From the IMG/VR virus record IMGVR_UViG_3300029288_000106, positions 41,264-105,263 of that record: a stretch of DNA of 64,000 nucleotides. One strand, given 5' to 3'. Positions 11,613 through 63,424 of the stretch are shown one piece after another; position 1 is the stretch's first letter; every line of letters begins with the position of its first letter. A model generated the notes under the pieces. The model made no database searches. It saw only the letters and a list, made by a program, of their open reading frames with translations, and was not told the DNA's origin. Origin of the DNA: a virus (taxonomy: Duplodnaviria; Caudoviricetes). A program made the translations under genes and the position numbers.

Positions 11613-11628
11613 AATATTTTTAAAAAAT

Positions 11629-11660
11629 TTTCTTGATTTTTATAAAACATATATTATAAT
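11629..11660 (+). promoter_or_regulatory. sigma70-type early promoter, copy 3
   Basis: TTGATT(11633)-16 bp-TATAAT(11655); ATG at 11667. Confidence 0.7.
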
Positions 11661-11666
11661 ATATTT

Positions 11667-12017
11667 ATGAATAAAAAACAACTATTAAAAAATAGTAAAA
11701 CAAGCAAAATTAAAAATAAACATTTTACTTCGCCCGGTAATACTTTTTACGGCATTCAAAATAAAACAACTAAAGTATTATTAAGTTTATCAGTATCAGG
11801 AACAGGATCAACTGAAAGTTATGAATGTAGCCTTCAAGAAGATAGATTTACTAAAACTCCTTGGCTTACTACTTCTAAAGAAATAGCCAAAAAACTTTTA
11901 GAGGAAGGAATTGATTGGTATAATTCAAATTTAGAGTGCCCAGGAAATGCTTGGATGTTTAATGATGGTAAATTTAAAAACTATGAAATTGTAGAAATAA
12001 TACTACAAATAAAATAA
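11667..12017 (+). CDS. hypothetical protein
   Basis: ORF track; start 7 nt after the -10 box. Confidence 0.6.
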   Translation: MNKKQLLKNSKTSKIKNKHFTSPGNTFYGIQNKTTKVLLSLSVSGTGSTESYECSLQEDRFTKTPWLTTSKEIAKKLLEEGIDWYNSNLECPGNAWMFNDGKFKNYEIVEIILQIK

Positions 12018-12091
12018 TTTTTAAAAATCAAATTTTTTACTTTTGTATTTTATAAAAACGTATATATTAAAAAGAAGAAAGGGCAAAACAG

Positions 12092-13114
12092 ATGATTGAT
12101 ATTACAAAAAAACTCATTACAAAAGAAACAATGCTAGAACAGGGCCAAAAGCTCCGCACACTCACGGCTGAAGATATTACATTTGGAGAACAAACCAAAT
12201 TTGCTTATGATGAAAAGCAAGGTGTAGTTCTTCAAGTGAAATCAAACGAACCTCAAACACTCGAAGCAACAGCAGTTCAACATCTTCTTCAGAATATTGG
12301 ACTGCCTCAGAAGTTCTTTAACGAAACAACATCAGATTTAGCAATACAACTTTTGAACTATTGGTATCAAGACAAACGAAATGGCCTCAAAAGCAGATTG
12401 TTAAAAGAAACAGGAAAAGTTACCGGAGTAGCTTTCAATCCAAGAGATCAATTTGTATCACTTGATCAAATGATTGAAACAATCGAAGCATCTCTTGGGC
12501 AAGCAAATATTATTGGTTATCACAATCCATATTTCGATTGGTCTCACAGCAATATCAATGTTGTGCTTAACCAGGTATTTGCAGTAAACGGAAGAGAAGA
12601 TTTACTTAACATTGGAATCAGATTTGTTCATTCTTTCAACGAAATTGAACCAACTCGAGCTTTTGCTTATGTCTTTCGTCAATTTTGCTCTAATGGAGCA
12701 ATAACAGAAGATACATTCGCTTCATTCAGTAAACGATCAAAAGGTATGCCATTTAGAAAATGGGTTGATTCAGTTGTTGTTGAATCAACAAAAGCAGCAG
12801 GCCTCGAACAACAGCGATTGCAAAAACTCTTGCAGATGCCAACAAATCAACATACATCTGATATACTTAATCATGTAATGGAAAGATCATTCTTACCAAA
12901 AGATGTACAAGAAGCAATTCGAACAGAAGCAATTGATGCTAACGCAGAAACAATGTATGATGTCTACAATATACTTACTCGAGTATCTACACATCATCCA
13001 ATCTTTTCTGATCATCCAACTGCTCTTCCGACAGTTGAAAAACTTGCAACAGGCCTTTCATTCCATTCTAGTTTATGTCCAGTATGCAAACACGAAATTG
13101 TAACAAAAGATTAA
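12092..13114 (+). CDS. DUF932/DUF945-family protein
   Basis: GI...HS......A..FRQFCSNGAI motif and C-terminal YDVYN.LT. Confidence 0.7.
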   Translation: MIDITKKLITKETMLEQGQKLRTLTAEDITFGEQTKFAYDEKQGVVLQVKSNEPQTLEATAVQHLLQNIGLPQKFFNETTSDLAIQLLNYWYQDKRNGLKSRLLKETGKVTGVAFNPRDQFVSLDQMIETIEASLGQANIIGYHNPYFDWSHSNINVVLNQVFAVNGREDLLNIGIRFVHSFNEIEPTRAFAYVFRQFCSNGAITEDTFASFSKRSKGMPFRKWVDSVVVESTKAAGLEQQRLQKLLQMPTNQHTSDILNHVMERSFLPKDVQEAIRTEAIDANAETMYDVYNILTRVSTHHPIFSDHPTALPTVEKLATGLSFHSSLCPVCKHEIVTKD

Positions 13115-13131
13115 CTAACTAGCTAATCATC

Positions 13132-13163
13132 GCCACGATCCAGACTAAAAACTGGATCGAGGC
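13132..13163 (+). terminator. GC-rich hairpin after the DUF932 gene
   Basis: GCCaCGATCCAG-loop-CTGGATCGaGGC; U-tract weak. Confidence 0.4.
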
Positions 13164-13205
13164 CTTGATTATCTTTCAGAAATAACATCAAAGTCTAAAA
13201 CAAGG

Positions 13206-13736
13206 ATGGTTATGAATAGCAGCAAGGATGTTACTCAATATCTGAGTATAATTCAGATAGAAGCGTATAAGTGTTATATGAAATTAAAAAAACCACCTAT
13301 TTATGATGTAGAAGATTTAGAACAAGAAGGGATAATTGTATGGTTGTATGCTTGTATGTTTAAACCTGATTACACAGAACTTGAGTTCAGGCCATACTTT
13401 AGAATAGCTCTTATAAATAGATTTAATGATATTCTAACAAAGTCTTATCGATATATTAATCAAGCTGGAGAAATAGATATGCCTTGTATTGGAGCATTAA
13501 AGCCCACTATATCTCCTCTAGCTAAAGCACAACTAACTGAAACATTATACACAAATCTATCTCCAGTAGAACTTAATTACATATCTACACTTTTCAACTT
13601 GTCAGAAGAAGAAAAGAAAGAACTAACAAACGACCGGCGACATAGATTTTCATTAATGCAGAAAAAAATGAATTTAACGACCGAACAAGATTTTCAAACT
13701 AGAAAAAATATTGAACGGGTTTTAACTAATGCTTAA
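13206..13736 (+). CDS. phage RNA polymerase sigma-factor-like protein
   Basis: Region-2-like DVEDLEQEG.I.W ... F.PYF...LINRFNDIL. Confidence 0.6.
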   Translation: MVMNSSKDVTQYLSIIQIEAYKCYMKLKKPPIYDVEDLEQEGIIVWLYACMFKPDYTELEFRPYFRIALINRFNDILTKSYRYINQAGEIDMPCIGALKPTISPLAKAQLTETLYTNLSPVELNYISTLFNLSEEEKKELTNDRRHRFSLMQKKMNLTTEQDFQTRKNIERVLTNA

Positions 13737-48813: not shown

Positions 48814-48872
48814 CTTAGGAGCACGCGTGCTCCTTAATGATCTTCCGCTGGTTAATACAAATACACTAATCA
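48814..48872 (-). repeat. intergenic palindrome element (core 48819-48832)
   Basis: Reverse complement TGATTAGTGTATTTGTATTAACCAGCGGAAGATCATTAAGGAGCACGCGTGCTCCTAAG. Confidence 0.9.
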
Positions 48873-49365: not shown

Positions 49366-51312
49366 TTATAAGTAGTCTCTATCAACTGTTTTCTTTAGTT
49401 TAGCTACCGAAACTGGGTTGTTGCGACAATCAAACCCACCACCTACCTTCTGTGGACAACCTTTTAGGGTGGTTAGTTTGTTCTTGCGACAAATAAAACC
49501 ACCACCAACTTCTTGTGGACAACCTTCTAGAGTAGTGAGTTGGTTGTTGCGACAATCAAACCCACCACCTACCTTCTGTGGACAACCTTTTAGGGTGGTT
49601 AGTTTGTTCTTGCCACAATCAAACCAACCACCAACCTTCTGTGGACAACCTTCTAGGGTGGTGAGTTTGTTGTCATAACAATAAAAACTACCACCAACTT
49701 CCTTAAATTTAACTGGAAGTTTAGTTAGACCTAAATTAGATAAATCAACGTCTCCAGAACACGAATAAGTACCGTCTGAATTCTTAGTACAGCCTTCTAG
49801 TCGACGCTGGACTACTTCGTCTGTCGAAGCTGGTTTAAATAACGAATCTAAATCTGAGTCTTCGTTAACAACTTCAAATACTTTCAATAACTTGTCTATT
49901 AATTTAACTTGATGATCTGAAAAATGCCATCTGACGTCTTTCTGTTTATCAAACCACTCTCTTGCAGAATTCTTTTTTAGCTCTTCAGACATTGCTTGCC
50001 AATCAGCTATCATCTCAGCTATAGCTATATCTGGCATGGCCGAAGCATCTATACATATATCTGATTTGTTTCGATCTTTTGCACTAATATTAGCTTTACT
50101 CTTATCATCAAGCCAATATTCTGGATGATGAGAATTACCAGTAACATGATGTAATGTTGCTTGATTCTCATCTTCTTTAGCTAATAATCCAGGAGTTTGA
50201 TATCCTTTTCCATTAATTGGATCATAATTATTTTGTTCATTTTCTAATTTATGTCTCCAAGTTAGTGAAATATATGGAGTCTTTTCTGGATCTTCAAATT
50301 TAGATGCATCGTGAACTTGAACATTTGATAATAATTCTTGAAACTCTGGATAAGCCTTAACAATTTTCTCAGCTGCTTGCTGAACAAGATTAATATGTTT
50401 GTTTGTTCTTTGTACAAACCATTCATATTTTTCATCTGCAGTATTATCAACAGATGGAGTAGCAATAATAGCTTCTAGTGCTGTTGGCTGTTTAACTACT
50501 TGATGTCCTTGTCTTGTTAAATTTTTCATTACCTGCCATCCTCTACCATAAGCTTTTTTATTTGCCCATGTTTCAAGTCTTTTGGCTAAAAAATTTGGTA
50601 CATCATCAAATGCATATTCTCCACCAGAAGATGATTTTATAGTTAGATATCCAGTACTATCATAGCTAATAACTTTATAACTATAATCATCAATACTTTC
50701 ATTTCTTATTCCTACTTTCTTTTTTGTACCTGTTGTTTTTAGAATATCTGTTGGACGATCCGGATATCTTAGTTTATTAAGAACATCTAGTATTTCTTTA
50801 ACTTCAAATATTAAATCTTCAATGCCTTGAGCTTCTGTTGTATCTGGATCATCAAGAGTTTTAGAATACTCAAGCCATAAATGGTAGATAACTGGATAAT
50901 CATTATGCCATTGACCAACTGCATTATCTAAAGCTACTAACATCTGCTTTTCATCATGTGATTTAAAAGCTCTTTCTATTTCATTCTTTCGTTCAGCAAA
51001 CTCACTGGCTATAGTCAAGTACACTGTATTTTTTGTTATATAATCTGTGCCTTTATTAAGAAAAATATCTGTATGCCACTTGAGATAATTCTCATAAAAG
51101 TCTTTCATTGCATCAAGAGCAGTCCAGAGATTATTCTCGTCTATATTTGGTCTTTCAAGTAATATATCTCGATAAACCTTATAAATAGCTTTAATACCAC
51201 TACTGGTTACACTTTCAAACAAAAGATCGGGTGTATTGGTACAAGAAAATACACCCGATACCGGAGGAGGGTAATGAAAAGCTTTTATCATGTTTTCAAG
51301 CAGCTGGTTCAT
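49366..51312 (-). CDS. mosaic putative internal head protein: N-domain + KTSC-like + DUF5662/HD-like + LRR-like cassette (4 full modules + terminal)
   Basis: HDASK...HH...NSHHPEYW...EMIADW; C-terminal NEDSDLDSLFKPAS cap followed by 21-aa repeats. Confidence 0.7.
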   Translation of the reverse strand: MNQLLENMIKAFHYPPPVSGVFSCTNTPDLLFESVTSSGIKAIYKVYRDILLERPNIDENNLWTALDAMKDFYENYLKWHTDIFLNKGTDYITKNTVYLTIASEFAERKNEIERAFKSHDEKQMLVALDNAVGQWHNDYPVIYHLWLEYSKTLDDPDTTEAQGIEDLIFEVKEILDVLNKLRYPDRPTDILKTTGTKKKVGIRNESIDDYSYKVISYDSTGYLTIKSSSGGEYAFDDVPNFLAKRLETWANKKAYGRGWQVMKNLTRQGHQVVKQPTALEAIIATPSVDNTADEKYEWFVQRTNKHINLVQQAAEKIVKAYPEFQELLSNVQVHDASKFEDPEKTPYISLTWRHKLENEQNNYDPINGKGYQTPGLLAKEDENQATLHHVTGNSHHPEYWLDDKSKANISAKDRNKSDICIDASAMPDIAIAEMIADWQAMSEELKKNSAREWFDKQKDVRWHFSDHQVKLIDKLLKVFEVVNEDSDLDSLFKPASTDEVVQRRLEGCTKNSDGTYSCSGDVDLSNLGLTKLPVKFKEVGGSFYCYDNKLTTLEGCPQKVGGWFDCGKNKLTTLKGCPQKVGGGFDCRNNQLTTLEGCPQEVGGGFICRKNKLTTLKGCPQKVGGGFDCRNNPVSVAKLKKTVDRDYL

Positions 51313-51729
51313 TTAATTTGGTTTCGAATAAATAGCATTTATTGTTACTTTTGATACTAAACCACGCATATCCATATCAACTTCAAGATCTTCAATTGTA
51401 TAGGCATTTCCATTTATCCAATTGAATTCATAACTAACTTCTAACCAATCAATTTTACCAGATATAGTATTCACAACTTTATCATCTGTATCTGTAATTT
51501 CTATCTCAAAATTAACCACACCTCGAGGAACAATTGAAATATCTTTTATTCCCCAACTTCGATATTCCATTTCAATCTCAAATGAAACATTAGCTTTGAT
51601 AGAACTAACTTCATGATCCACAGGAAGATCTGTTATATTAAAGTTTAGAGGAATATTAATTCTATAAAAATTATCTTCAGCTTCTTCATTCAATTTTATA
51701 TTCATTAGCTTTTCAACTAGATCATCCAT
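51313..51729 (-). CDS. hypothetical protein with leader motif
   Basis: MDDLVEKLMNIKLNEE N-terminus. Confidence 0.65.
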   Translation of the reverse strand: MDDLVEKLMNIKLNEEAEDNFYRINIPLNFNITDLPVDHEVSSIKANVSFEIEMEYRSWGIKDISIVPRGVVNFEIEITDTDDKVVNTISGKIDWLEVSYEFNWINGNAYTIEDLEVDMDMRGLVSKVTINAIYSKPN

Positions 51730-54493
51730 TTTTATTGGCCTTCACAATAACTGCAAATTTCTTCTCGTCTGTACTATCTTTAACAACCTGTCCTTGTTTC
51801 TTTCGAGCTAATTCATCCGCATCTGCTTTGTCTTCAATACCTTGAGCAATTGTTTTGAATTGCTCTTTTTCTTCTTCATTAAGCTTAGATTCATCACACT
51901 CTCCAGCTTCCATCTTCTTAAGTTTAGTATAATACTGTGGATCTTCAGCAAGATGATCCATAGCTATCTTCTTAGCAATTTCCGGATCATCAGTATGTTC
52001 TTTTTCAACCTCAACACCCATAGCTAGTTGTTGTTCAAAACTCGACTCGAGTTTAGATAAATCAGCTTCTTCTCGAATACTATTCACATCTGTCGATTTG
52101 CAGTGTATACAAGCAGCTATGGTCGATTCAAATGTCTTAGCACAAGCATTGCAGATGTAAAGAGCTGATTTGGATTCATTTTTCTTCTTCATTAATTCAA
52201 TTTTCTTCTCTACTTCAGCAAGTTGATCTACTATATCACCTTCTTCATCTTTAGCCTGATCCCAACCACCTGATCCACTAGCTGCTATTCTCTGGCACAT
52301 TCTTTTTGCCGCTTTAAGATCTTGTTTAAGTTCTGCCTTTTGTTTTTCAAGATCTTGTAAAGTCTCTTTTCTTTCGTTTGTTTTCTTTTTCTTCTTACTG
52401 TGTTTTTTACCACACATTTCTTCAATATCTTCATCTTTCTGAACTTCATGTCCTTTAATATCAAAAGTATCAACAAGAGGTCCACCAGGGCCTGCAGCAT
52501 ACTCTATATCAACTGTACCATCATTCCAAATAGCTGTAATAACTCCTCGACCTTCATCAAATATAACTCTATCATTTTTCTTTATATCTTTTCCATAAAT
52601 ATCACGACTAACTGGTATCTCTTCTAATTCTTCTTCTAATAATACACTTCTCTTATCAATCGAAGACAAACCACCTTCTACAATTCCATTAACTCTTTCA
52701 AAAATTGATTCAAATGTATCTTTAATCTCTTCATCTTGAACCGGTATCATTGTAGAAGGTTCTTTATCGTTTGGTTTAGCTTTGAAGTCAACTGGAGCTA
52801 ATCCAACTGCAATAGCAGCTATATCTTCAGCAGGATCGTAATCTTTGTTATCTAGTGCTGGTTGATCAATCTCAGTCTTCTTGGCCGGACTGTCAGTTGA
52901 TTCGTCTGCTCTACCAACCGATTCAAGATTTGAACTATCACAATCTGGACAACAACCATTCCATGATATGGCTTGTACATCAGCTTCTTCTCCTCTACCT
53001 ACAGAGAAGATTCTATCACACGTTTTGCATTTGTATGATTCAATTACTGTTTCGTTAATTGATTCATCAGTAATATTAGAAGCATTAATTTTTGTATCCA
53101 ACATCTTTTCTATAAACTCAATTACTTCTTTGGTCCAATGATCTTGATTTAAAAAAGGCACAATTTCTTTTGCGAGTTCTTCTTTTGAATACTTTTCTAA
53201 AGCACTTCCAATAAATCTGCGCATAGTATATTTCCAAAGCTGATCATCAAGATCATCTCCTGGCTCTTTATCAACAAGACTAATATCTATTTTATTAATA
53301 ACATCTTCAGCATCACCTGCCCAATCATCTACTTCATAAGAAGCTTCATCGGCTGGATCATCAACTTCCCAGAGTTCTTTTCCTAATTTTTTAGCTAAAG
53401 CTTGCCAGTCCTTCATTTTTTTATTGTATTGTTCAATTGCATCAAGTCTACTTTTATTCAATTCCGGATTTTCCTCTTCCCATTTTCCTTCGTTGAGTTT
53501 TGATTCATCAAGAAAAAGAGAAGCTTTTATTCCAAGAGCTTTTGACACTAACTTAATATCATCAACTTCCCATCCTTCTCCTTCTTTCACTAAGCTTAAA
53601 AATTCTTGTTGTATAGCTTCTGCACCAAATTTTTTAACTGCATATTTAATAGTAGTTTGCACTATCTCCTTCTTTTTCTCTCCCCAAAACCCAGCACCTT
53701 CACCACCACTCCAAAACATATCCACAATAGTAGCAATAGCATCTACAACATCTTTTGCTTTATCTATCTCTTCTATCTCTTCTATTTCTTTCTCATTGAG
53801 CTTTGATTCGGTATACCTGCTTTTCAAAGTTATGTTAGCAATCTCTTCATCAGACATATCCTGGGCCTTTAAACTAGATTGCTTGATAGCCTCAATAAAT
53901 TTAGGTGGATTTTTATGATATAATGATCTTGGTGATCTAGATGAATTAAGATCTCTAAAATTTCTATAACCCATATACTGAGCAAAACTATCTAAATCTA
54001 CCATACCTACATCAAAAGCTTGAGCAAATTCAGCCCAAATAGATTTCCGTGGGATTGAATTAGAAAAAGTATTAGCTTCATTTAATCTCTTCTCCGTTGC
54101 ACTATCACCAACTAACGAAGCAAATATCTTTTGTGCTTCATGTTCCATACTTATTTCTATATCTTCTTCCTCTTCCTCAGGAGTCTCTTCTGTCTTCAGA
54201 GCTGGAGGAGGAGTTTGTTTAGCAACTTCTTGAGCTATAGCTAAAGCTTCATTATACTCAACTTTAAACATACTACTAGCTACTTCAGCCAATTCTTCTG
54301 AAGTCCAATGATCTCCAAATTCTTGAGCCTTCTGAGCAAAAGTTTCCATATAGCGTCTGGTTATATCTTGTGGAGTCTTGCCTTCCCCTCTCCATTCACC
54401 TTCTGTAAGTATAATAGCATTTATCTTCTCGTAAATAGTTTGATCTGCTTTTCTAGTTGCTTCTGTTATAGCTTCAAACATTTCTCTGAACAT
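51722..54493 (-). CDS. acidic modular protein with ESKLNE motifs, Zn ribbons and a DUF5661-like domain (putative processed head/core protein)
   Basis: Recurrent ESKLNE/ESINE; CxxC..CxxC pairs; MGVEVEKEHTDDPEIAKKIAMDHLAEDPQYYTKL. Confidence 0.7.
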   Translation of the reverse strand: MFREMFEAITEATRKADQTIYEKINAIILTEGEWRGEGKTPQDITRRYMETFAQKAQEFGDHWTSEELAEVASSMFKVEYNEALAIAQEVAKQTPPPALKTEETPEEEEEDIEISMEHEAQKIFASLVGDSATEKRLNEANTFSNSIPRKSIWAEFAQAFDVGMVDLDSFAQYMGYRNFRDLNSSRSPRSLYHKNPPKFIEAIKQSSLKAQDMSDEEIANITLKSRYTESKLNEKEIEEIEEIDKAKDVVDAIATIVDMFWSGGEGAGFWGEKKKEIVQTTIKYAVKKFGAEAIQQEFLSLVKEGEGWEVDDIKLVSKALGIKASLFLDESKLNEGKWEEENPELNKSRLDAIEQYNKKMKDWQALAKKLGKELWEVDDPADEASYEVDDWAGDAEDVINKIDISLVDKEPGDDLDDQLWKYTMRRFIGSALEKYSKEELAKEIVPFLNQDHWTKEVIEFIEKMLDTKINASNITDESINETVIESYKCKTCDRIFSVGRGEEADVQAISWNGCCPDCDSSNLESVGRADESTDSPAKKTEIDQPALDNKDYDPAEDIAAIAVGLAPVDFKAKPNDKEPSTMIPVQDEEIKDTFESIFERVNGIVEGGLSSIDKRSVLLEEELEEIPVSRDIYGKDIKKNDRVIFDEGRGVITAIWNDGTVDIEYAAGPGGPLVDTFDIKGHEVQKDEDIEEMCGKKHSKKKKKTNERKETLQDLEKQKAELKQDLKAAKRMCQRIAASGSGGWDQAKDEEGDIVDQLAEVEKKIELMKKKNESKSALYICNACAKTFESTIAACIHCKSTDVNSIREEADLSKLESSFEQQLAMGVEVEKEHTDDPEIAKKIAMDHLAEDPQYYTKLKKMEAGECDESKLNEEEKEQFKTIAQGIEDKADADELARKKQGQVVKDSTDEKKFAVIVKANKNG

Positions 54494-54514
54494 TTATATA
54501 CTCCTTGATATACT

Positions 54515-55291
54515 CTAAATTCTAAGTTTTGATTCGTTAGTATCGCTGCCATAGCTTTCAGCTTTATCTTTTACAGTCATTCCTTGATATCCATCTTCGT
54601 TTGCTATCTCAACATCAGATCCAGCTACACTATCTGCTTCCTTCTTGCCTTCTCCTATCGTAATCTGAGGTTCAGGATCACAAGTTAATCTATCAGAACC
54701 ATCCCCATCAAATGACATAGCAAACAATCCTGAATGACCACCATTAAAATGTAGAAATCCCAAAAAGTTTTCAAACCTCTTCATAATCATATCAGAACTT
54801 GCTGTTATCTTGAATGTCTTTGTAACCTCAGTTTTCTCTTCCTCTTCTTTAAGCTTCGATTCGTCCAGATCAGTCGTATCAATTAATTCAACTTTCTCTC
54901 CTTTAGCATCTGACCAATATCCTGACCCCGACAAATCTCTGAAGTTAATCAAATCCACAATCTTGTCAGACATCTGCTTATCAACACACCAAAATGCAAC
55001 TTCGTGCCTTCTGCCACTTTTAGTTATTGGTCTCAGATTAATAGGAAGATCTCTAAATCGTAAATTCAATAAATTAGTAATTGATTCAGGAGAAGTCTTA
55101 AGTAATATATACTCAATAATTGCTAGAGCTCTTTTGTCGCTGGGTAGTATCTTCTTACCTTGTGCAACGAGTATATCAAATAGCCTATCTACTGATGTTG
55201 CTGGTGCCTCTTCACAATATTGATTCATCGCCCGAAGAAGAGCTTTGTAAACTTTCAAATCTTTCGCTTCAAATATTGATTTTTTATGCAT
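54515..55291 (-). CDS. hypothetical protein with ESKL motifs
   Basis: DESKLKEEE and NESKLRI. Confidence 0.65.
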   Translation of the reverse strand: MHKKSIFEAKDLKVYKALLRAMNQYCEEAPATSVDRLFDILVAQGKKILPSDKRALAIIEYILLKTSPESITNLLNLRFRDLPINLRPITKSGRRHEVAFWCVDKQMSDKIVDLINFRDLSGSGYWSDAKGEKVELIDTTDLDESKLKEEEEKTEVTKTFKITASSDMIMKRFENFLGFLHFNGGHSGLFAMSFDGDGSDRLTCDPEPQITIGEGKKEADSVAGSDVEIANEDGYQGMTVKDKAESYGSDTNESKLRI

Positions 55292-55325
55292 TTTTAAATT
55301 CCTATCAATTGTACCTGCCTAAAAA

Positions 55326-55386
55326 CTTAAGAGCACGCGTGCTCCTTAATGATCTTCTATTGGTTAATACCAAAGTATATACAAAA
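55326..55386 (-). repeat. intergenic palindrome element (core 55331-55344)
   Basis: CTTAAGAGCACGCGTGCTCCTTAATGATCTTCTATTGGTTAATACCAAAGTATATAC on the + strand. Confidence 0.9.
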
Positions 55387-55418
55387 TTTACTTTTTATTC
55401 AAAATTCAAAACTTTCTA

Positions 55419-56399
55419 TCATTTTAAATAGTCTCTATTAACTGTTTTCTTTAGTTTAGCTACCGAAACTGGGTTATTGTGACAATAAAAATTACCACCA
55501 ACTTCTTGTGGACAACCTTCTAAGGTCGTGAGTTGGTTGTTGTGACAATAAAAACTACCACCAACCTTCTGTGGACAACCTTCTAGGGTGGTTAGTTGGT
55601 TGTTGGAACACCAAAAATCACCACCAACCTTCTGTGGACAACCTTCTAGGGTGGTGAGTTGGTTGTTGTGACACCTAAAACTACCACCAACCTTCTGTGG
55701 ACAACCTTCTAGGGTGGTGAGTTGGTTGGAGGAACAATCAAACTCACCACTAACCTTCTGTGGACAACCTTCTAGGGTGGTGAGTTGGTTGTTGGAACAA
55801 TCAAACCAACCACCAACTTCTTGTGGACAACCTTTTAAGGTGGTGAGTTGGTTGGAGGAACAATCAAACTCACCACCAACTTCCTGTGGACAGCCTTCTA
55901 AGGTGGTGAGTTTGTTGTTGCTACAATCAAAACCACCACCAACCTTCTGTGGACAACCTTTTAAAGTCGTAAGTTGGTTGGAGGAACAATCAAACTCACC
56001 ACCAACCTTCTGTGGACAACCTTTTAGAGTGGTGAGTTGGTTGTTGCTACAATCAAAACTACCACCAACCTTCTGTGGACAACCTTTTAAGGTGGTGAGT
56101 TGGTTGAAGGAACACCAAAAACCACCACCAACTTCTTGTGGACAACCTTCTAGGGTGGTGAGTTTGTTGCCAGAACACCAAAAACCACCACCAACTTCTT
56201 TAAACTTTACCGGGAGTTTAGTTAAACCTAAACCCGATAAGTCAACGTCTCCAGAACACGAATAAGTACCGTCTGGGTTTTTAGTACAGTTTTCTAGTCG
56301 ACGCTGAACTACCTCGTCTGTCGAAGCTGGTTTAAACAACGAATCCAGATCTGAGTCTTCGTTAACTACCGATAACATTTTTTCTAATAGTTCTATCAT
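55419..56399 (-). CDS. LRR-like cassette-array protein (11 full 21-aa modules + terminal)
   Basis: VGxxFxCxxN(Q/K)LTTL(E/K)GCPQ(K/E) tandem; MIELLEKMLSVVNE leader. Confidence 0.85.
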   Translation of the reverse strand: MIELLEKMLSVVNEDSDLDSLFKPASTDEVVQRRLENCTKNPDGTYSCSGDVDLSGLGLTKLPVKFKEVGGGFWCSGNKLTTLEGCPQEVGGGFWCSFNQLTTLKGCPQKVGGSFDCSNNQLTTLKGCPQKVGGEFDCSSNQLTTLKGCPQKVGGGFDCSNNKLTTLEGCPQEVGGEFDCSSNQLTTLKGCPQEVGGWFDCSNNQLTTLEGCPQKVSGEFDCSSNQLTTLEGCPQKVGGSFRCHNNQLTTLEGCPQKVGGDFWCSNNQLTTLEGCPQKVGGSFYCHNNQLTTLEGCPQEVGGNFYCHNNPVSVAKLKKTVNRDYLK

Positions 56400-56429
56400 A
56401 TTAAATAATTTTATTGTAATATTATATTT

Positions 56430-56654
56430 CTACTCAAAGCTGTGTTCCTCAACAATACAAAGCTTATAAAATGGTAATTTATTCAAACAAACCTCAGCAT
56501 AAGGCTTAGAAGAATATTTTATAGCTAAACTAACATTAGGAGTAAACTTATGAATAGTCTGAATACTACTATCAATACAAACTCTCTCTTCTGTTCCAGA
56601 ATAATAAAGAGGAGCCAGTAAATCTTTCAACTCTATCAGATACTTAACCTCCAT
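56430..56654 (-). CDS. hypothetical protein
   Basis: AAGGAG RBS before the ATG at 56654. Confidence 0.5.
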   Translation of the reverse strand: MEVKYLIELKDLLAPLYYSGTEERVCIDSSIQTIHKFTPNVSLAIKYSSKPYAEVCLNKLPFYKLCIVEEHSFE

Positions 56655-57531
56655 ATTGATCTCCTTGTTTGCCCAAATCTTCTTTCTCATCTATATTTTC
56701 AATCACCATCTGAATTTCTCTGAATGTAGCATTACCAAAACTGTTGCCCTGTGGAAATATAACATTCTTAACTACTTTTATATCCCTTACCTGCTCTTCA
56801 ATTGCATCTACAACGTCCTGATCATCAATCATTATTGATAATTGAGGCAAGTAAGTAAAATCAATCATAGCTTCATAAATCAGATTAATCTGATCTAACT
56901 TGCTATACAATCTTGTTCCATAAAGAAATGAATATTTCTGAAATACCTTAAATGCTGTTAAAGGTTCTTGATTTCTCAATGCATTAATAAGCATTTCAAA
57001 ATTGCCTCTAGTATCTTTGAATGACTGTTGTAACATAGCATCTAATGCTTCAATATCTTTCTCTTTATATTCTACTGAAACAGCTACTTTATTAACTGCA
57101 TCTCTCTTGACAACTCCAAAGCGAGCCTTCCAAAGATCAACATCCATATTGAGAGCTTCGAAAGGCTCACTGGAGAACATCCTAGTCAAAGCTACTTTTA
57201 GCTCTGATTGAAGCATCTGAAGATCCTTTTCAAATGCTTCAGCAAGATAACGCTGCAGGCCAACGACTGTTTTCTGGTCATTCCAATCAAATAAAGTAGA
57301 AAAATCATTCCAGCAAGTATGTGGAACATATATTGATACTGCGTCTTCAAATACAACTTTCTTTCCTTCTTTATCCTCAAGTATTTCTATGCCCCAATCT
57401 TTTTTCATCTTAGCAAGCGATTGTAAAGCAGCTTTAACTGCCCCAACACTTGATGGCAAATAAGCTATGTCAGATATTGTTGTTGCTTCGTTTAGATCTA
57501 TTTGTTCAAGTTTTGTTGCTAAGTCATACAT
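56644..57531 (-). CDS. hypothetical protein with leader-like N-terminus
   Basis: MYDLATKLEQIDLNEA. Confidence 0.65.
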   Translation of the reverse strand: MYDLATKLEQIDLNEATTISDIAYLPSSVGAVKAALQSLAKMKKDWGIEILEDKEGKKVVFEDAVSIYVPHTCWNDFSTLFDWNDQKTVVGLQRYLAEAFEKDLQMLQSELKVALTRMFSSEPFEALNMDVDLWKARFGVVKRDAVNKVAVSVEYKEKDIEALDAMLQQSFKDTRGNFEMLINALRNQEPLTAFKVFQKYSFLYGTRLYSKLDQINLIYEAMIDFTYLPQLSIMIDDQDVVDAIEEQVRDIKVVKNVIFPQGNSFGNATFREIQMVIENIDEKEDLGKQGDQYGG

Positions 57532-57544
57532 AATTTGAAGTTCT

Positions 57545-58117
57545 CTATTTATTTTCTGTCTTCAACAATTTATCAATTTTTCTCATCATTACTTCAAGCG
57601 CAGCTTTACTAGAAGTATATGTCGATCCAACTATAGAATCTGGATTCCCTTCAAATAGTTCCTTTTCTCCCACCCAACCAAGATAGCCCGCTGAACCACT
57701 GCCTACACCTACTTTTGACTCAAAAATAACAACTAGATTTTCAATTATGCCTATTGATTGTAATCCTGATTTAATAACAGCAGAAGAAGATTGCCGTGGG
57801 AAAAGTAATTTTAAAGTTAAAAATCTAATCCACTTAACACCACGCTGTTCTAATATACGTATAACTTCTCTACTAGCCTTGGCCACAGTAGGAAGCTCTT
57901 TAATTGGACTGCTAAACACATTATAATTATATCTATGAGAAAGAATTGGAGATTTTGAAGAAAACTCCATACCTTTGTATTCATAGTTATTAGTACCCAA
58001 AATTCTCTTTATTCCAAGCCTTGCTAACACTTCATCTTTACTGGCTGGTTTAAATAACGAATCTAAATCCGAGTCTTCGTTAATAATGTTTAACATTTTT
58101 TCTAGTAGTTCTTGCAT
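57545..58117 (-). CDS. leader/cap module fused to an unrelated cargo domain
   Basis: MQELLEKMLNIINEDSDLDSLFKPASKDEV shared with the LRR genes; the rest is unrelated. Confidence 0.7.
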   Translation of the reverse strand: MQELLEKMLNIINEDSDLDSLFKPASKDEVLARLGIKRILGTNNYEYKGMEFSSKSPILSHRYNYNVFSSPIKELPTVAKASREVIRILEQRGVKWIRFLTLKLLFPRQSSSAVIKSGLQSIGIIENLVVIFESKVGVGSGSAGYLGWVGEKELFEGNPDSIVGSTYTSSKAALEVMMRKIDKLLKTENK

Positions 58118-58122
58118 GTTAA

Positions 58123-60738
58123 TTATAAATTCAACATTTTTACAAATCTTTCGTACGATATTGCCTGATCAGTTTCAGTATAAACAGTTTTACTACCATT
58201 GGGGTTTACTACAACTGCATATTTCTTATTTGTTGGCTTATGAACTATATAATAGAGATTGTTTCCAGCTTTCCAATATCTTTCCCAGTGATCGGGAATT
58301 TTCATTGCTGTGCACCATTTTGTATTGGCTCCATATTTACAACTTGCTTTATGAGATTTTACATGAACAATAAAAATAGTATCATCATCTCTAATTACCT
58401 CAGATTCACCTTTAATTTCTCTTTCCACTTCAGATCTAGAAACCTTTTTACTAGCTTCACTTACTGCCTGTTCAATTTCATCAACTGTTTTATAGCTATA
58501 TATATCTTTTCTCGTTATTTTTTCTGTTCTAACATACTCATCAAATAATAAAATATTATCAATTAAATGATCTATCCTATCATAACCATCAGCAATTTGT
58601 TTCAACATCCAACCAGTGTACTTACCTTTACCAGAAGGATCACTGGAAACTAATTTATCAAACACTTCATTCGAAACTTTTCCTGTATCAACATACTGTA
58701 TTCTAAGATCTTTAATACCTTCAACTAAATCTCGCGATTCAACAGTAAATTCATCTTTAGATCTTTTATATTCTTCCCATTCATCTTCAGCAGCAATCAG
58801 TAATTTTTGAATTATAGCTTTACCTTCCTTACTTCCAGCTAATATTTCTTTAATTAATTTAGGATTAACATCACTAATAATTTTCTTTTGAATTAAAGGA
58901 AGTAGATTTTGTTTATTAGTAGGTATCATTTTTTGAATAGTTTTAAAAACAGAAGATCCTACCATCAAATCAGTTGTTTCACTCTCAACCCCTTTTCTTC
59001 TAAGCTCAGAAAATTCAGGTTTTATAGAAAACCAATCATAAATTCCTTTAACTAATTCATGTAACAGGAAGGGAAATAATATAGCTTCTGCATGAATTGT
59101 GTAGATCTTATCAGTTGGTTTAACTTGCTCAGCTCCGCCAACAGCACCACTTTTAACAGCTACCTTTTCCATACCAAACGGAGTTAACCAATAACCTAGA
59201 TATGCAATAGTAGTAGCTATTCCATATAACTTTGGTAAGTTTTTATCAATAGCTTCTAATTGTGATTCAACAAGATGAAACGAAAAACTCTTTAAAACAG
59301 CTCCACCTTGTATTAAAAGAGTTGATAATCTTTTTCTCAATGCTAAATCAGAAACTTCTAGTTTATTAGCTAAATCCATATTTAGCTTTTCATCTGGATA
59401 TAAATCGATATTCTCTTCACCAACTGGCAATTTTATAGTAGGAGTTTTCAATGCTACTTTAAGAATTAAATGCCCATTTTCAATAGCATCTTTTACCATC
59501 TCAAACTCATCTAACGAAAGTATTGTATTAACTGCTAACTGCTCTAGTTTACGTTTATTTTTTGTCTCTATATCAGTAATTTTATTAATAGTTTTAAACA
59601 TAATATCAACTAGTTGTGGAGTATTTCCATTTGTGGCGTTTATACCTGTATATCTTTCTAATTTTGCTACCAGATCAGTATATGAATCACTTGATATCAT
59701 CTCTAGGTATGATCGACCTTTTGTTGATAATTTTGGTAGTAATTGATTTATTTCATCATCTCCACTATGAATCCATTCTTCTTTTGATGGATCAATATTT
59801 ATAGCTTCTTCAAGTAAATTTTTTCGACGCTGTTTGAATAATTCTACATCTAAATTTTCGCCTTTTGGCTCAGGATCTTGATGAGGAACAGGAACTAAAG
59901 GATGTCGTACAGGTTTAGGTTTAACATCAGGCTCTGTCTCAGTATCAGGCTCTGTCTCAGTATCAGGCTCTGTTTCAACTCCTTCTCCTACTAACCTTGA
60001 ATTTGTATCTCCTTCTTTAGCTAAATCAGCTTCAGATTTAAGTGCTGGTATCTTCTTCTCTTCCTCATCTGCTTCTACTTCAACTTCCTCTTTTTTCTTG
60101 CTTAGTTCTTCTCCTGCTGCAGCAAATCTTGATGCTATCTTTTTAGCTTCTCTTTCCGCATTCTCTATCTCACGGCCCCAATTATCTTTCAACCAACTAG
60201 CCAAATCATTGATATAAAATGGATAGGCTTGCAACAAAGCATGTAAATGTTTGCAAATCATACCCAATTCGCGTGGATTTCGAATACGCGGACGTCTATG
60301 CTCTTGATCTCCAAACTTAGCATCGTACTTAGCTTTACTTGTAATATACGAAAATCCATAATACAAAAATGAAGGGCAGCTACATTCAAGCTGCAAATCA
60401 GCTTTATACAAAAATTCCTTAGCCAGCTTTCGTAAATCTATACTTGTCTTGTCTTGTGTCCATAGTCTACGATCCTTAACTAACTTATTTAACAAAGCTC
60501 CTGTATCTTTAAATCTAATATATCCATCGTACCAAACACCATTTTTTGTACCACTATGTAACTTAAAGTGCCAATATGAAGGACGTTGATCTTCTAACCT
60601 CACTCCACCTCGATTAGCTACTGCTTGTACACGATCAGGAAAACTAGGAAATAAATTAGTTATAGACCTTTGCTTGCGTTGGATACCACTATATCCAATC
60701 TCATCAAGTCTTAACATTTTTTCTAATAGTTCTTTCAT
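58123..60738 (-). CDS. large modular protein with SWIM-type Zn finger and leader motif
   Basis: MKELLEKMLRLDE; CSCPSF...CKH; ETEPDT linker; C-terminal ASCKYGANTKWCTA motif. Confidence 0.7.
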   Translation of the reverse strand: MKELLEKMLRLDEIGYSGIQRKQRSITNLFPSFPDRVQAVANRGGVRLEDQRPSYWHFKLHSGTKNGVWYDGYIRFKDTGALLNKLVKDRRLWTQDKTSIDLRKLAKEFLYKADLQLECSCPSFLYYGFSYITSKAKYDAKFGDQEHRRPRIRNPRELGMICKHLHALLQAYPFYINDLASWLKDNWGREIENAEREAKKIASRFAAAGEELSKKKEEVEVEADEEEKKIPALKSEADLAKEGDTNSRLVGEGVETEPDTETEPDTETEPDVKPKPVRHPLVPVPHQDPEPKGENLDVELFKQRRKNLLEEAINIDPSKEEWIHSGDDEINQLLPKLSTKGRSYLEMISSDSYTDLVAKLERYTGINATNGNTPQLVDIMFKTINKITDIETKNKRKLEQLAVNTILSLDEFEMVKDAIENGHLILKVALKTPTIKLPVGEENIDLYPDEKLNMDLANKLEVSDLALRKRLSTLLIQGGAVLKSFSFHLVESQLEAIDKNLPKLYGIATTIAYLGYWLTPFGMEKVAVKSGAVGGAEQVKPTDKIYTIHAEAILFPFLLHELVKGIYDWFSIKPEFSELRRKGVESETTDLMVGSSVFKTIQKMIPTNKQNLLPLIQKKIISDVNPKLIKEILAGSKEGKAIIQKLLIAAEDEWEEYKRSKDEFTVESRDLVEGIKDLRIQYVDTGKVSNEVFDKLVSSDPSGKGKYTGWMLKQIADGYDRIDHLIDNILLFDEYVRTEKITRKDIYSYKTVDEIEQAVSEASKKVSRSEVEREIKGESEVIRDDDTIFIVHVKSHKASCKYGANTKWCTAMKIPDHWERYWKAGNNLYYIVHKPTNKKYAVVVNPNGSKTVYTETDQAISYERFVKMLNL
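59926..59977. repeat. 18-bp tandem repeat (~3 copies) encoding an ETEPDT linker
   Basis: ATCAGGCTCTGTCTCAGT repeated. Confidence 0.85.
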
Positions 60739-61463
60739 TATAAGTAGTCTCTATCAACTGTTTTCTTTAGTTTATCTTCTGAAACTGGATTGTTGTGACA
60801 ATAAAAATCACCACCAACCTTCTGTGGACAACCTTCTAGGGTGGTTAGTTGGTTGTTGGAACAATCAAACCAACCACCAACTTCTTGTGGACAACCTTTT
60901 AAGGTGGTGAGTTGATTGGTGTGACACCTAAAACTACCACCAACCTTCTGTGGACAACCTTCTAAAGTCGCGAGTTTGTTGTTGTAACAAATAAAACTAT
61001 AACCAACCTTCTGTGGACAACCTTCTAGGGTGGTGAGTTGGTTGTTGGAACAATCAAACCAACCACCAACCTTCTGTGGACAACCTTCTAGGGTGGTGAG
61101 TTGGTTGTTGCTACAATCAAACCAACCACCAGCCTTCTGTGGACAACCTTCTAGGGTGGTGAGTTGGTTGAAGGAACACCAAAAACCACCACCAACTTCT
61201 TGTGGACAACCTTCTAAAGTCGTGAGTTGGTTGTTAGAACAATAAAAGCTACCACCAACTTCTTTAAACTTTACCGGGAGTTTAGTTAAACCTAAACCAG
61301 ATAAATTAACGTCACCAGAACACGAATAAGTACCGTCTGGGTTTTTAGTACAGTTTTCTAGTCGACGCTGAACTAATTCGTCTATTGAAGCTGGTTTAAA
61401 CAACGAATCCAGATCTGAGTCTTCGTTAACTACCGATAACATTTTTTCTAATAGTTCTATCAT
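60738..61463 (-). CDS. LRR-like cassette-array protein (7 full modules + terminal)
   Basis: Same leader, cap and 63-bp repeats as 55419-56399. Confidence 0.85.
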   Translation of the reverse strand: MIELLEKMLSVVNEDSDLDSLFKPASIDELVQRRLENCTKNPDGTYSCSGDVNLSGLGLTKLPVKFKEVGGSFYCSNNQLTTLEGCPQEVGGGFWCSFNQLTTLEGCPQKAGGWFDCSNNQLTTLEGCPQKVGGWFDCSNNQLTTLEGCPQKVGYSFICYNNKLATLEGCPQKVGGSFRCHTNQLTTLKGCPQEVGGWFDCSNNQLTTLEGCPQKVGGDFYCHNNPVSEDKLKKTVDRDYL

Positions 61464-61998
61464 TATAAGTAGTCTCTATCAACTGTTTTCTTTAGTTTAG
61501 CTACCGAAACTGGATTGCTGGAACAATCAAACCAATCACCAACTATTTGTGGACAACCTTCTAGGGTGGTGAGTTTGTTGGAGGAACACCAAAAATCGCC
61601 ACTAACTTCTTGTGGACAACCTTTTAAGGTGGTTAGTTGGTTGTTGTGACAATAAAAACTACAACCAACCTTCTGTGGAGACCTTTTAAGGTAGTGAGTT
61701 GGTTGCCAGAACAAATAAAACTACGACCAACCTTCTGTGGACAACCTTTTAAGGTGGTTAGTTGGTTATCGGAACAATCAAAACCACCACCAACTTCTTT
61801 AAATTTAACTGGAAGTTTAGTTAGACCTAAATTAGATAAATCAACGTCTCCAGAACACGAATAAGTACCGTCTGAATTCTTAGTACAGCCTTCTAGTCGA
61901 CGCTGAACTACCTCGTCTGTCGAAGCTGGTTTAAACAACGAATCCAGATCTGAGTCTTCGTTAACTACCGATAACATTTTTTCTAATAGTTCTTGCAT
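61463..61998 (-). pseudogene. frameshifted LRR-like cassette-array gene (4 full modules + terminal)
   Basis: MQELLEKML start at 61998; at ~61678-61683 TGTGGAGACC replaces the usual TGTGGACAACC (net 1-bp loss), splitting the frame. Confidence 0.75.
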
Positions 61999-63365: not shown

Positions 63366-63424
63366 CTTAAGAGCACGCGTGCTCCTTAATGATCTTCTAC
63401 TGGTTAATACAAATACACTAATCA
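63366..63424 (-). repeat. intergenic palindrome element (core 63371-63384)
   Basis: Reverse complement TGATTAGTGTATTTGTATTAACCAGTAGAAGATCATTAAGGAGCACGCGTGCTCTTAAG. Confidence 0.9.

What the first reader, a model, noticed from the sequence alone, without database searches (positions are those of the whole stretch)
49366..61998. Four paralogous hypervariable LRR cassette arrays: a VLR-like binder repertoire in a phage
Seen in sequence: four loci (C-terminus of 49366-51312, 55419-56399, 60738-61463, 61463-61998) share one N-cap (NEDSDLDSLFKPAS...LTKLPVKFKE) and one C-cap (NPVS..KLKKTV.RDYL). Between the caps lie 4, 11, 7 and 4 full 21-aa/63-bp modules plus a terminal one, 30 in total. The framework VG..F.C..N.LTTL.GCPQ. 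is nearly invariant. Module positions 3, 4, 6, 8 and 9 vary widely (G/Y/R/C/D; G/S/E/W/D/N; W/D/R/Y/I; S/H/Y/G/R; G/F/N/S/T/D/K). Identical variants recur in different loci and orders (GGGFWCSFN, GGSFRCH, GGWFDCSNN, SFYCHNN, DFWCS). The caps are mosaic: the EGCTKNS form is in two loci and the ENCTKNP form in the other two. Established knowledge: in LxxLxLxxN-type repeats the x positions line the concave binding face, which is how agnathan VLRs diversify. Inference: a recombination- or conversion-shuffled library of binding proteins, possibly packaged and injected as anti-defence or host-targeting binders.
Basis: partly seen in the sequence, partly recalled or inferred. Interest (0 to 1): 0.88.

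Follow-up and report, generated by a model that had tools for sequence, protein, structure and literature searches.

The report
Hypervariable LRR binder genes in phage head block
An uncultured T4-type phage carries five copies of a small leucine-rich-repeat binding protein whose repeat arrays differ sharply between near-identical strains, and whose shared leader and head-gene position suggest, but do not prove, that they are loaded into the capsid and injected.

Summary
Four loci in the window, plus a fifth elsewhere on the same 105-kb viral contig, encode proteins with one N-cap, one C-cap and 4 to 11 copies of a 21-residue (63-bp) LRR module.

- **Variation:** Framework codons are almost invariant, even synonymously. 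Module positions 4, 6, 8 and 9 vary (pN/pS 1.7 against 0.10). By register these are the concave-face positions.
- **Locus D:** It is broken by a 1-nt deletion.
- **Strain comparison:** Orthologues in strains with 98-100% identical flanking protein carry 2, 4 or 10 modules at locus A, and 4 or 11 at locus B.
- **Recombination:** The N-cap of D is a clean mosaic of B and A.
- **No programmed assembly:** There are no silent cassettes, no reverse transcriptase and no recombinase. "VLR-like" is therefore an analogy for an inherited, recombining gene family.
- **Packaging (inferred):** A short leader is shared with unrelated neighbouring genes. It ends in a hydrophobic-Asn-Glu site that is 4.6-fold enriched in head-block proteins. 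The genome has a T4 gp21-type protease. LRR genes sit in head modules in at least five phage lineages.

This scan has already found similar phage LRR arrays on other DNA. I found no paper describing them.

The parts
49366..49872 (-). Locus A, LRR part. N-cap 49699-49872, four full 63-bp modules 49447-49698, terminal module + C-cap + stop 49366-49446. Fused in frame to the upstream DUF5662 domain.
   Evidence: Orthologues have 2+1 and 10+1 modules. L031 lacks exactly 126 bp.
49873..51312 (-). N-terminal 480 residues of the same ORF. An unknown region is followed by DUF5662 (residues 299-477), which carries an invariant His-Asp and further conserved His and Asp residues.
   Evidence: Pfam PF18907 E 2.9e-26. 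Homologues are fused to nucleotidyltransferase, CCA-enzyme and 2'-5' RNA ligase domains. Conserved columns. AF2 pLDDT is 85-98 for most of this domain. The fold search gave only weak HD-domain hits.
55419..56399 (-). Locus B, 326 aa. Leader + N-cap 56196-56399, eleven full modules 55503-56195, terminal module + C-cap 55419-55502.
   Evidence: P0008 carries B's unique terminal module and C-cap but only 4+1 modules.
60738..61463 (-). Locus C, 241 aa. Leader + N-cap 61260-61463, seven full modules 60819-61259, terminal module + C-cap 60738-60818. Its stop overlaps the start of the next gene by 1 nt (TAATG).
   Evidence: (AF2 model).
61463..61998 (-). Locus D, a frameshifted copy and probable pseudogene. 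N-cap 61795-61998, module 1 61732-61794, module 2 with the 1-nt deletion near 61679-61680, modules 3-4 61544-61669, terminal module + C-cap 61463-61543. The N-cap is a mosaic of B (5') and A (3').
57545..58117 (-). 190-aa basic non-LRR protein that shares the first 26 residues (leader plus acidic Phe-Lys-Pro motif) with the LRR genes.
   Evidence: Orthologue P0153 is 173/190 identical. No Pfam or PHROG family.
58123..60738 (-). 871-aa protein that begins with the same 9-residue leader helix. Its C-terminal domain recurs fused to an LRR array in P0053.
   Evidence: A weak PcfJ-like match in P0053, below the Pfam cut-off.
51313..51729 (-). 138-aa protein with a looser leader that ends in Leu-Asn-Glu at residues 13-15.
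56644..57531 (-). 295-aa protein with a looser leader that ends in Leu-Asn-Glu at residues 13-15.
   Evidence: A homologue sits in the syntenic block of L033.
51722..54493 (-). 923-aa acidic polyprotein-like gene with five hydrophobic-Asn-Glu sites. Three of them lie in a repeated Glu-Ser-Lys-Leu-Asn-Glu linker. Carries DUF5661.

Best explanation
These are an inherited multigene family of small, acidic LRR binding proteins. The repeat is the 21-residue 'cysteine-ladder' type, and the fold is closest to the target-binding LRR domains of IpaH/SspH/YopM. The family lies in the head-gene block of a myovirus that has a T4 gp21-type prohead protease.

Shown:
- The scaffold is fixed, and four solvent-facing positions per module carry the variation.
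- Arrays gain and lose modules in 63/126-bp steps.
- Paralogues exchange segments by recombination or conversion.
- One copy (D) is decaying.
- Orthologous arrays are replaced between strains whose flanking protein is 98-100% identical.

Inferred:
- The short N-terminal leader is also found on unrelated neighbouring genes, and in a relative it serves as an in-frame linker inside a polyprotein. I read it as a capsid-targeting propeptide like that of the T4 internal proteins.
- On this reading the leader tethers the protein to the scaffolding core and is cut after hydrophobic-Asn-Glu by the prohead protease.
- The mature LRR proteins would then travel in the capsid, enter the host with the DNA and bind variable host proteins, most plausibly defence proteins, through the concave face.

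My odds: diversifying LRR binder family about 0.85; packaged and ejected about 0.5; anti-defence role about 0.3.
For: Fold and family:
- Pfam LRR_4.
- AF2 pLDDT 93.9.
- Foldseek top hits are IpaH7.8, YopM, IpaH3 and SspH1.
- PDB sequence search gives InlJ at E 5.7e-18 and SspH2 at 3e-13. These alignments fix the register: Phe5 = L4, Cys7 = L6, Asn10 = N9.

Diversification:
- Codon table.
- pN/pS 1.72 at positions 4/6/8/9 against 0.10 in the framework.
- 21 distinct four-residue words among 31 modules, with recurrent words across loci.
- In the N-cap of D, 21 of 21 informative sites match B and then 14 of 15 match A.

Strain polymorphism:
- Locus A has 2+1, 4+1 or 10+1 modules, with 538/538 or 463/470 identical upstream residues.
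- The locus B orthologue has 4+1 against 11+1 modules.

Packaging:
- Peptidase_S77/phrog_207 protease.
- Locus E lies between the portal and the protease.
- The leader motif occurs in 7 of 22 block genes against 3 of 105 elsewhere, p = 1.6e-4.
- The hydrophobic-Asn-Glu tripeptide occurs 23 times in 7,432 block residues against 18 in 26,447 elsewhere, p = 2e-6. It sits at residue 12-13 of eight proteins, at residue 45 of the capsid protein, and four times in the coiled-coil tail of the protease ORF.
- LRR genes lie next to portal, protease or capsid genes in L021, L026, L033 and L042.
- In L042 an LRR domain sits inside a 1181-aa polyprotein and is followed in frame by a leader-like linker.
- T4 gp21 cuts after L/I-X-E, and a 10-residue capsid-targeting sequence suffices for loading (PMC9026906, PMC3012670).
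Against: - No virion proteomics, reads or expression data could be obtained, so cleavage, packaging and injection are untested.
- The leaders of the five LRR genes and of two neighbouring genes are related by descent, so the enrichment counts are not independent.
- A hydrophobic-x-Glu site is short and easy to find in Glu/Leu-rich helices.
- The LRR genes of relative L033 lack the leader helix and keep only the Phe-Asp-Ser-Leu-Phe-Lys-Pro motif.
- Locus E has ATA in place of the ATG start.
- Large LRR gene arrays in other phages (L015, L019) sit among non-structural genes and lack this leader.
- The concave-face assignment rests on sequence register, because no model coordinates were available.
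- Module counts come from short-read assemblies.
Confidence: 0.55

Rival explanations
1. The LRR proteins are made late in the infected cell and act there, for example as adaptors that bind host or phage proteins, and they are not loaded into capsids. On this view the shared leader is only the N-terminal cap helix of this LRR subfamily and a hotspot for homologous recombination that has spread to neighbouring genes.
For: - The leader helix plus the Phe-x-Pro motif is conserved in about 70 distinct members of the subfamily, so it could be an integral cap.
- DNA homology between paralogues starts only a few bases before the start codon, as expected for recombination modules.
- L033 LRR genes lack the helix.
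- Other phages keep LRR arrays outside structural modules.
Against: - The first 9-26 residues are shared with proteins that have no LRR.
- The motif at the leader end is enriched across head-block proteins that are not paralogues, including the capsid protein and the protease tail.
- The leader serves as an in-frame linker in polyproteins next to the protease.
- pLDDT of the first 20 residues is only 61-71.
Confidence: 0.25
2. The LRR proteins are virion-surface or tail-associated adhesins. They would widen or switch binding to host or environmental surfaces, in the way variable receptor-binding or decoration proteins do.
For: - The best sequence match, InlJ, is a surface adhesin.
- Hypervariable binding faces and strain-level replacement are typical of receptor-binding proteins.
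- One paper reports a highly diverse, weakly LRR-like gene in the tail module of a vibriophage (PMC10945359).
Against: - The loci lie in the head/neck block and not beside the fibre or baseplate genes.
- No anchoring, fibre or decoration domain is present.
- One copy is fused to an enzyme-like domain.
Confidence: 0.1
3. The arrays are diversified by a programmed mechanism during infection. This could be VLR-like copy-choice from donor cassettes, a diversity-generating retroelement, or a shufflon.
For: - Variation is sharply focused on four codons.
- Variable codons 8 and 9 are almost all NNC.
- Each module can form a stem of 7 to 11 bp around the variable codons.
Against: - All 31 modules lie inside complete genes, with no silent cassettes.
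- The 105-kb contig has no reverse transcriptase, resolvase or tyrosine recombinase, although about a third of the genome is missing.
- Trp codons at variable sites cannot arise from adenine-directed mutagenesis of AAY.
- The hairpin z-score is only -1.84.
Confidence: 0.03
4. The arrays, or their module counts and mosaics, are assembly artefacts of short-read metagenomics.
For: - Many related contigs end inside LRR arrays.
- P0007 looks like a chimera of locus E and locus C on a 1.2-kb contig.
- The 126-bp difference in L031 coincides with a 126-bp repeat unit.
Against: - The five loci have unique flanks.
- The exact 648-aa protein A occurs on two contigs.
- Independent assemblies from JGI, ENA and NCBI give the same architecture with different arrays.
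- Relatives at 50-75% identity show the same organisation.
Confidence: 0.04

Closest known systems
T4 internal proteins IPI/IPII/IPIII and Alt with their capsid-targeting sequence (PMC3012670, PMC9026906)
   Same: - A short conserved N-terminal sequence sits on otherwise unrelated proteins.
- It ends in a hydrophobic-x-Glu site of the kind cut by a gp21-type protease, which this genome encodes.
- The gene set is highly plastic between strains.
- The T4 proteins are injected, and IPI* blocks a host restriction enzyme.
   Different: - The cargo here is a modular LRR solenoid in five paralogues with a variable binding face.
- The leader is 14 residues with Asn at P2.
- Some copies are fused into polyproteins.
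- Loading, cleavage and injection are not shown here.
Listeria internalin J (PDB 3bz5), the 21-residue cysteine-ladder LRR
   Same: - It is the best PDB sequence match (E 5.7e-18).
- The repeat is 21 residues.
- A Cys occupies a core position in every repeat (31 of 31 here).
   Different: - The phage proteins have no secretion signal and no internalin cap, Ig-like domain or cell-wall anchor.
- Their second half-repeat (Leu-Thr-Thr-Leu-x-Gly-Cys-Pro) resembles IpaH/SspH repeats instead.
LRR substrate-recognition domains of the type III effectors IpaH, SspH1/2, SlrP and YopM
   Same: - They are the top structural matches.
- SspH2 matches at E 3e-13 by sequence.
- Both are short 20-22-residue repeats delivered into another cell to bind host proteins through the concave face.
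   Different: - The phage proteins have no NEL ligase domain.
- Delivery, if any, would be through the phage capsid and tail.
- They occur as many paralogues with near-identical framework DNA.
Lamprey and hagfish variable lymphocyte receptors
   Same: - LRR modules lie between fixed caps.
- Module number is variable.
- Diversity sits at the concave x positions.
   Different: - VLRs are assembled somatically from silent cassettes by a deaminase-linked copy-choice process.
- Here every locus is a complete inherited gene, and there are no orphan cassettes.
Tandem LRR gene arrays in other uncultured phages
   Same: - The same 21-residue module is used, and the same four positions vary.
- Caps are fixed within each phage, and module counts range from 2 to 11.
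- Examples are L015/L016 with 11-12 genes, L019 with 9, and L032/L034 with 7 and 9 or more.
- Earlier notes of this scan, e1-5832343 and e1-5832352, describe similar arrays.
   Different: - Here the copies are dispersed through a conserved head/cargo block and are not in one tandem run.
- One copy is fused to an enzyme-like domain.
- The modules have a codon usage foreign to the genome.

Membership tests
Leucine-rich repeat superfamily | Tandem repeats with the LxxLxLxxN core | tested here: met
   Pfam LRR_4 at E 3.5e-14 and 1e-9. 31 modules have invariant Phe5, Cys7, Asn10, Leu12 and Leu15.
Leucine-rich repeat superfamily | Curved solenoid fold | tested here: met
   AF2 pLDDT 93.9, pTM 0.85. 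All top PDB matches are LRR domains.
InlJ-type cysteine-ladder LRR class | 21-residue period with Cys at a core position in each repeat | tested here: met
   63-bp period. Cys7 is present in 31 of 31 modules. InlJ matches at E 5.7e-18.
Listeria internalin family | Signal peptide, internalin N-cap, inter-repeat Ig-like domain and surface anchor | tested here: not met
   The N-terminus is an acidic helix and the proteins end about 17 residues after the last repeat. No internalin domains in Pfam.
IpaH/SspH NEL effectors | C-terminal NEL E3 ligase domain after the LRR | tested here: not met
   No such domain in any of the five proteins. Only the LRR part matches.
VLR-type somatic assembly | Incomplete expressed gene plus banks of silent donor cassettes | tested here: not met
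   All 31 module-like stretches on the contig lie in five capped genes.
VLR-type somatic assembly | Diversity concentrated at concave-face x positions | tested here: met
   Entropy and pN/pS peak at positions 4, 6, 8 and 9, which equal x3, x5, x7 and x8 by the register of the SspH2 and InlJ alignments. No model coordinates were available.
Diversity-generating retroelement | Reverse transcriptase with template and variable repeat pair | tested here: not met
   No RVT_1 match on the contig, which is 68% of the genome. Trp codons occur at variable sites.
T4-type capsid-targeted internal proteins | gp21-family prohead protease in the genome | tested here: met
   PF03420 at 29.6 bits, over the cut-off. 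phrog_207 at E 8e-22.
T4-type capsid-targeted internal proteins | Short N-terminal sequence shared by otherwise unrelated proteins and ending in a hydrophobic-x-Glu site | tested here: met
T4-type capsid-targeted internal proteins | Leader removed by the protease, and the mature protein present in virions and ejected | not testable with these tools
No cultured relative exists: tail sheath identity to cultured phages is at most about 36%.

The most novel reading that the evidence does not exclude
T4-type phages of this clade load their capsids with a heritable, fast-evolving panel of LRR binders. Each is addressed by a portable leader that doubles as a protease-cut linker. The panel is injected with the DNA and neutralises a range of host defence proteins on entry. 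It would amount to a phage-side counter-immunity repertoire that evolves by module gain and loss and by cassette exchange between paralogues.
Probability: 0.3. Interest if true: 0.9.

Novelty: new variant of a known kind. Interest (0 to 1): 0.72.

Why it matters
If the LRR proteins are packaged, they would be a new and widespread class of injected phage proteins. Their specificity is written in four residues per module and is rewritten between strains. That would extend the T4 internal-protein idea from single-purpose inhibitors to a modular binder scaffold. It would give a direct handle on which host proteins phages need to bind in the first seconds of infection. It would also offer a natural, capsid-deliverable binder scaffold for engineering. 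Even without packaging, arrays replaced next to 98-100% identical flanks mark these genes as among the fastest-evolving in the genome. More than 5,000 related proteins were found in metagenomes, and in my searches no paper described this family.

Tried and rejected
Tools that gave nothing:
- Scans for close relatives with the 871-aa protein and with the N-terminal part of A found nothing.
- No model coordinates are returned by the structure tool, so the face assignment rests on register alone.
- Complex prediction was not used, because the scaffold partner is not identified.

Leads that did not hold:
- The fold search of the DUF5662 model gave no match at E <= 0.001, only weak HD-domain rows.
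- A PDB sequence search with the protease N-terminus gave only noise.
- The top hits of the N-cap profile search were giant cadherin/VCBS-like repeat proteins that share only a short Asn-Pro-Asp-Gly-Thr motif. I judged them spurious.
- The "7 places" in Vibrio phage SRILMA are one gene beside a helicase.
- The per-module RNA hairpin is real, but its z-score is only -1.84.
- In locus A I first read the sequence upstream of Val-Val-Asn-Glu as a retained leader. The alignment shows it is the native C-terminus of DUF5662.

Literature: six searches found no paper on phage LRR repertoires or packaged LRR proteins.
Full report
**Setting.** The window is bases 41264-105263 of a 105,263-bp linear IMG/VR viral contig, estimated 68% complete. 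It is a myovirus. Its tail sheath is at most about 36% identical to that of any cultured phage. The region 49-62 kb lies upstream of the sheath gene on the minus strand. The left end of the contig holds the head module on the same strand: portal (11465-13225), small genes, a fifth LRR gene, further genes, a 695-aa protein, a 941-aa ORF whose N-terminus is a T4 gp21-type prohead protease, and the major capsid protein. The protease matches PF03420 over the cut-off and phrog_207 at E 8e-22.

**Observation.**
- All four loci are present, with module counts of 4+1, 11+1, 7+1 and 4+1.
- Locus D carries a 1-nt deletion that is not in a homopolymer. It splits the gene into two frames, so D is probably a decaying copy.
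- A fifth locus, E (6+1 modules), lies outside the window. Its start codon is ATA.
- Among 31 full modules the framework codons are nearly invariant, even at synonymous sites: TTT 31/31, CCA 31/31, GTT 29/31.
- Positions 4, 6, 8 and 9 carry 5 to 7 different residues each, and many of their codons differ at two or three bases. Position 3 is Gly in 29 of 31 modules.
- pN/pS is 1.72 at the four variable positions, 0.38 at three two-state positions and 0.10 in the framework.
- There are 21 distinct four-residue words among the 31 modules. GWSF, WDSN, EDSS and SYHN recur, the first two in three loci. One 63-nt module is identical in B and C.

**What the proteins are.**
- Pfam calls LRR_4.
- An AF2 model of C is a confident solenoid with pLDDT 93.9.
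- Foldseek ranks the LRR domains of IpaH7.8, YopM, IpaH3 and SspH1 first.
- By sequence the best solved relative is internalin J, the 21-residue cysteine-ladder LRR (E 5.7e-18), followed by SspH2 at 3e-13.
- Those alignments fix the register: Phe5, Cys7 and Asn10 are the L4, L6 and N9 of LxxLxLxxN. The variable positions are therefore x3, x5, x7 and x8. In solved LRR complexes these face the ligand on the concave side; that is established knowledge, and I could not check it on coordinates.
- The same four positions are the most variable in four other phage LRR sets.
- The proteins are acidic (pI about 5), lack a signal peptide and are rich in Cys.

**How they vary.**
- *Recombination.* Of 36 sites that distinguish the N-caps of A and B, D matches B at the first 21, then A at 14 of 15, then B again. 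This is a conversion tract.
- *Homology boundary.* DNA homology between loci begins a few bases before the start codon, and upstream sequence is unrelated.
- *Locus A across strains.* The 90%-identity cluster of protein A holds three forms. A 606-aa form (ENA, 97-kb contig) has 538/538 identical upstream residues and 2+1 modules. The 648-aa form here has 4+1. A 774-aa form (NCBI, 17-kb contig) has 463/470 identical upstream residues and 10+1 modules, and shares no variable word with A except in the terminal module.
- *L031.* This metagenome contig is 99.7% identical over its first 643 bases, lacks exactly 126 bp (two modules), and carries a stop and a frameshift just upstream.
- *Locus B across strains.* P0008, from the same NCBI contig, has B's unique terminal module and C-cap but 4+1 modules instead of 11+1.
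- *No programmed mechanism.* No orphan cassettes exist. No reverse transcriptase, resolvase or integrase was found on the contig.
- *Codon usage.* The modules use codons foreign to this 33% GC genome: ACC 85% against 7%, AAC 98% against 16%, TCC 51% against 2%, and module GC 44.7%. LRR modules of other phages do not share this. The simplest reading is a horizontally acquired founder that was then amplified.
- *Overall mechanism.* Duplication, unequal crossing-over, conversion between paralogues and selection on four sites per module, with birth and death of copies.

**The leader and the case for packaging.**
- Loci B, C, D and E, a 190-aa basic protein, a 104-aa protein next to E and the 871-aa protein all start with the same helix-forming 9 residues. 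Most continue to a hydrophobic-hydrophobic-Asn-Glu end at residue 14.
- The motif is found in 7 of 22 genes of the head and cargo blocks against 3 of 105 elsewhere (p = 1.6e-4).
- The tripeptide hydrophobic-Asn-Glu occurs 23 times in the block proteins, where composition predicts 8. In the rest of the genome it occurs 18 times, where composition predicts 23 (p = 2e-6).
- The tripeptide lies at residue 12-13 of eight proteins, at residue 45 of the capsid protein, four times in the coiled-coil tail of the protease ORF and five times in the 923-aa protein. The paralogous leaders are not independent counts.
- T4 gp21 cuts after L/I-X-E, and the first 10 residues of IPIII suffice to load a protein into the prohead (PMC9026906). 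T-even internal proteins are a diverse set that share only that sequence (PMC3012670).
- About 70 distinct members of this LRR subfamily keep a similar helix, an acidic stretch and a Phe-(Lys/Gln)-Pro motif.
- In related contigs LRR genes sit beside head genes. In L026 the portal is followed by two LRR genes. In L021 two LRR genes are followed by head closure, protease, a 307-aa ORF with no PHROG match and capsid genes. In L033 the protease and capsid genes are followed by a block syntenic with this window, with four LRR genes of 2, 4, 11 and 9 modules. In L042 the LRR genes lie upstream of the protease.
- In L042 an LRR domain is embedded in a 1181-aa polyprotein and is followed in frame by a leader-like linker.
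- In P0053 an LRR array is joined by a similar linker to a domain homologous to the C-terminus of the 871-aa protein.
- At locus A the LRR part is fused after the native C-terminus of a DUF5662 domain, and the Val-Val-Asn-Glu site is kept at the junction.
- In three cases the stop of an LRR gene overlaps the start of a leader-bearing gene by one base.

Together these points fit a propeptide/linker that addresses cargo to the prohead and is then removed. None of them demonstrates it.

**Caveats.**
- L033 LRR genes lack the helix.
- E has a mutated start codon.
- Large LRR arrays in other phages lie outside structural modules and lack this leader.
- All arrays come from short-read assemblies.
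- Read mapping was not possible.

**Comparison and novelty.** The fold class is known, and the loading logic has a precedent in T4. New here is a modular, hypervariable LRR scaffold as the apparent cargo, in several paralogues with strain-level array replacement. Six literature searches found no description of this. One paper notes a diverse, weakly LRR-like gene in a vibriophage tail module (PMC10945359). This scan has already reported similar phage LRR arrays on other genomes, so the kind is not new to the scan.

Noticed in passing
window 49447-49698, 55503-56195, 60819-61259: LRR modules use codons foreign to the genome: ACC 85% against 7%, AAC 98% against 16%, TCC 51% against 2%, and GC 44.7% against 33.4%. 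LRR modules in other phages do not share this. It suggests a horizontally acquired founder that was then amplified.
   Followed up: partly
window 48819-48832, 55331-55344, 63371-63384 (also 13779, 30493): A perfect 14-bp palindrome, GAGCACGCGTGCTC, occurs five times, against 0 expected. Three copies sit in intergenic gaps that bracket the runs of genes holding D-C-B and A. They may be terminators or regulatory sites.
   Followed up: partly
window 49873-51312: Homologues of the DUF5662 domain fused to the LRR of locus A are often fused to nucleotidyltransferase, CCA-adding-enzyme and 2'-5' RNA ligase domains. They keep an invariant His-Asp and several His. This may be an HD-like RNA-repair enzyme, but the fold search was inconclusive.
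   Followed up: partly
G000:C1:10102-10836 (outside the window, 30.4-31.2 kb before its start): The fifth LRR locus, E (6+1 modules), lies between the portal and the protease. It has ATA where its paralogues have ATG, and it is followed by a 104-aa gene that starts with the same leader.
   Followed up: partly
window 58123-58722; P0053; many proteins: This LRR type is often fused to PcfJ-like domains in bacterial and metagenomic proteins. The C-terminal domain of the 871-aa neighbour recurs fused to an LRR in P0053, where it matches PcfJ only weakly (E 0.007, below the cut-off).
   Followed up: partly
window 55690-55878 and every module: Within each module the Gly-Gly codons and the Thr-Thr codons are complementary, giving a stem of 7 to 11 bp around the variable codons. 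The folding z-score is only -1.84.
   Followed up: partly
window 55714-56265 (+), 49418-49678 (+), 61030-61245 (+): Long antisense ORFs run through the arrays. They are most simply explained by a repeat unit that has no stop codon in that frame.
   Followed up: no
window 59926-59977: An 18-bp tandem repeat (2.9 copies) encodes a Thr-Glu-Pro-Asp-rich stretch in the 871-aa protein.
   Followed up: no
G000:C1:1810-3399 and the capsid genes of L033 and L042: The capsid proteins of three relatives share an Arg-(Ile/Leu)-(Leu/Phe)-Glu site about 75-95 residues from the N-terminus. This may be the maturation cleavage site.
   Followed up: no
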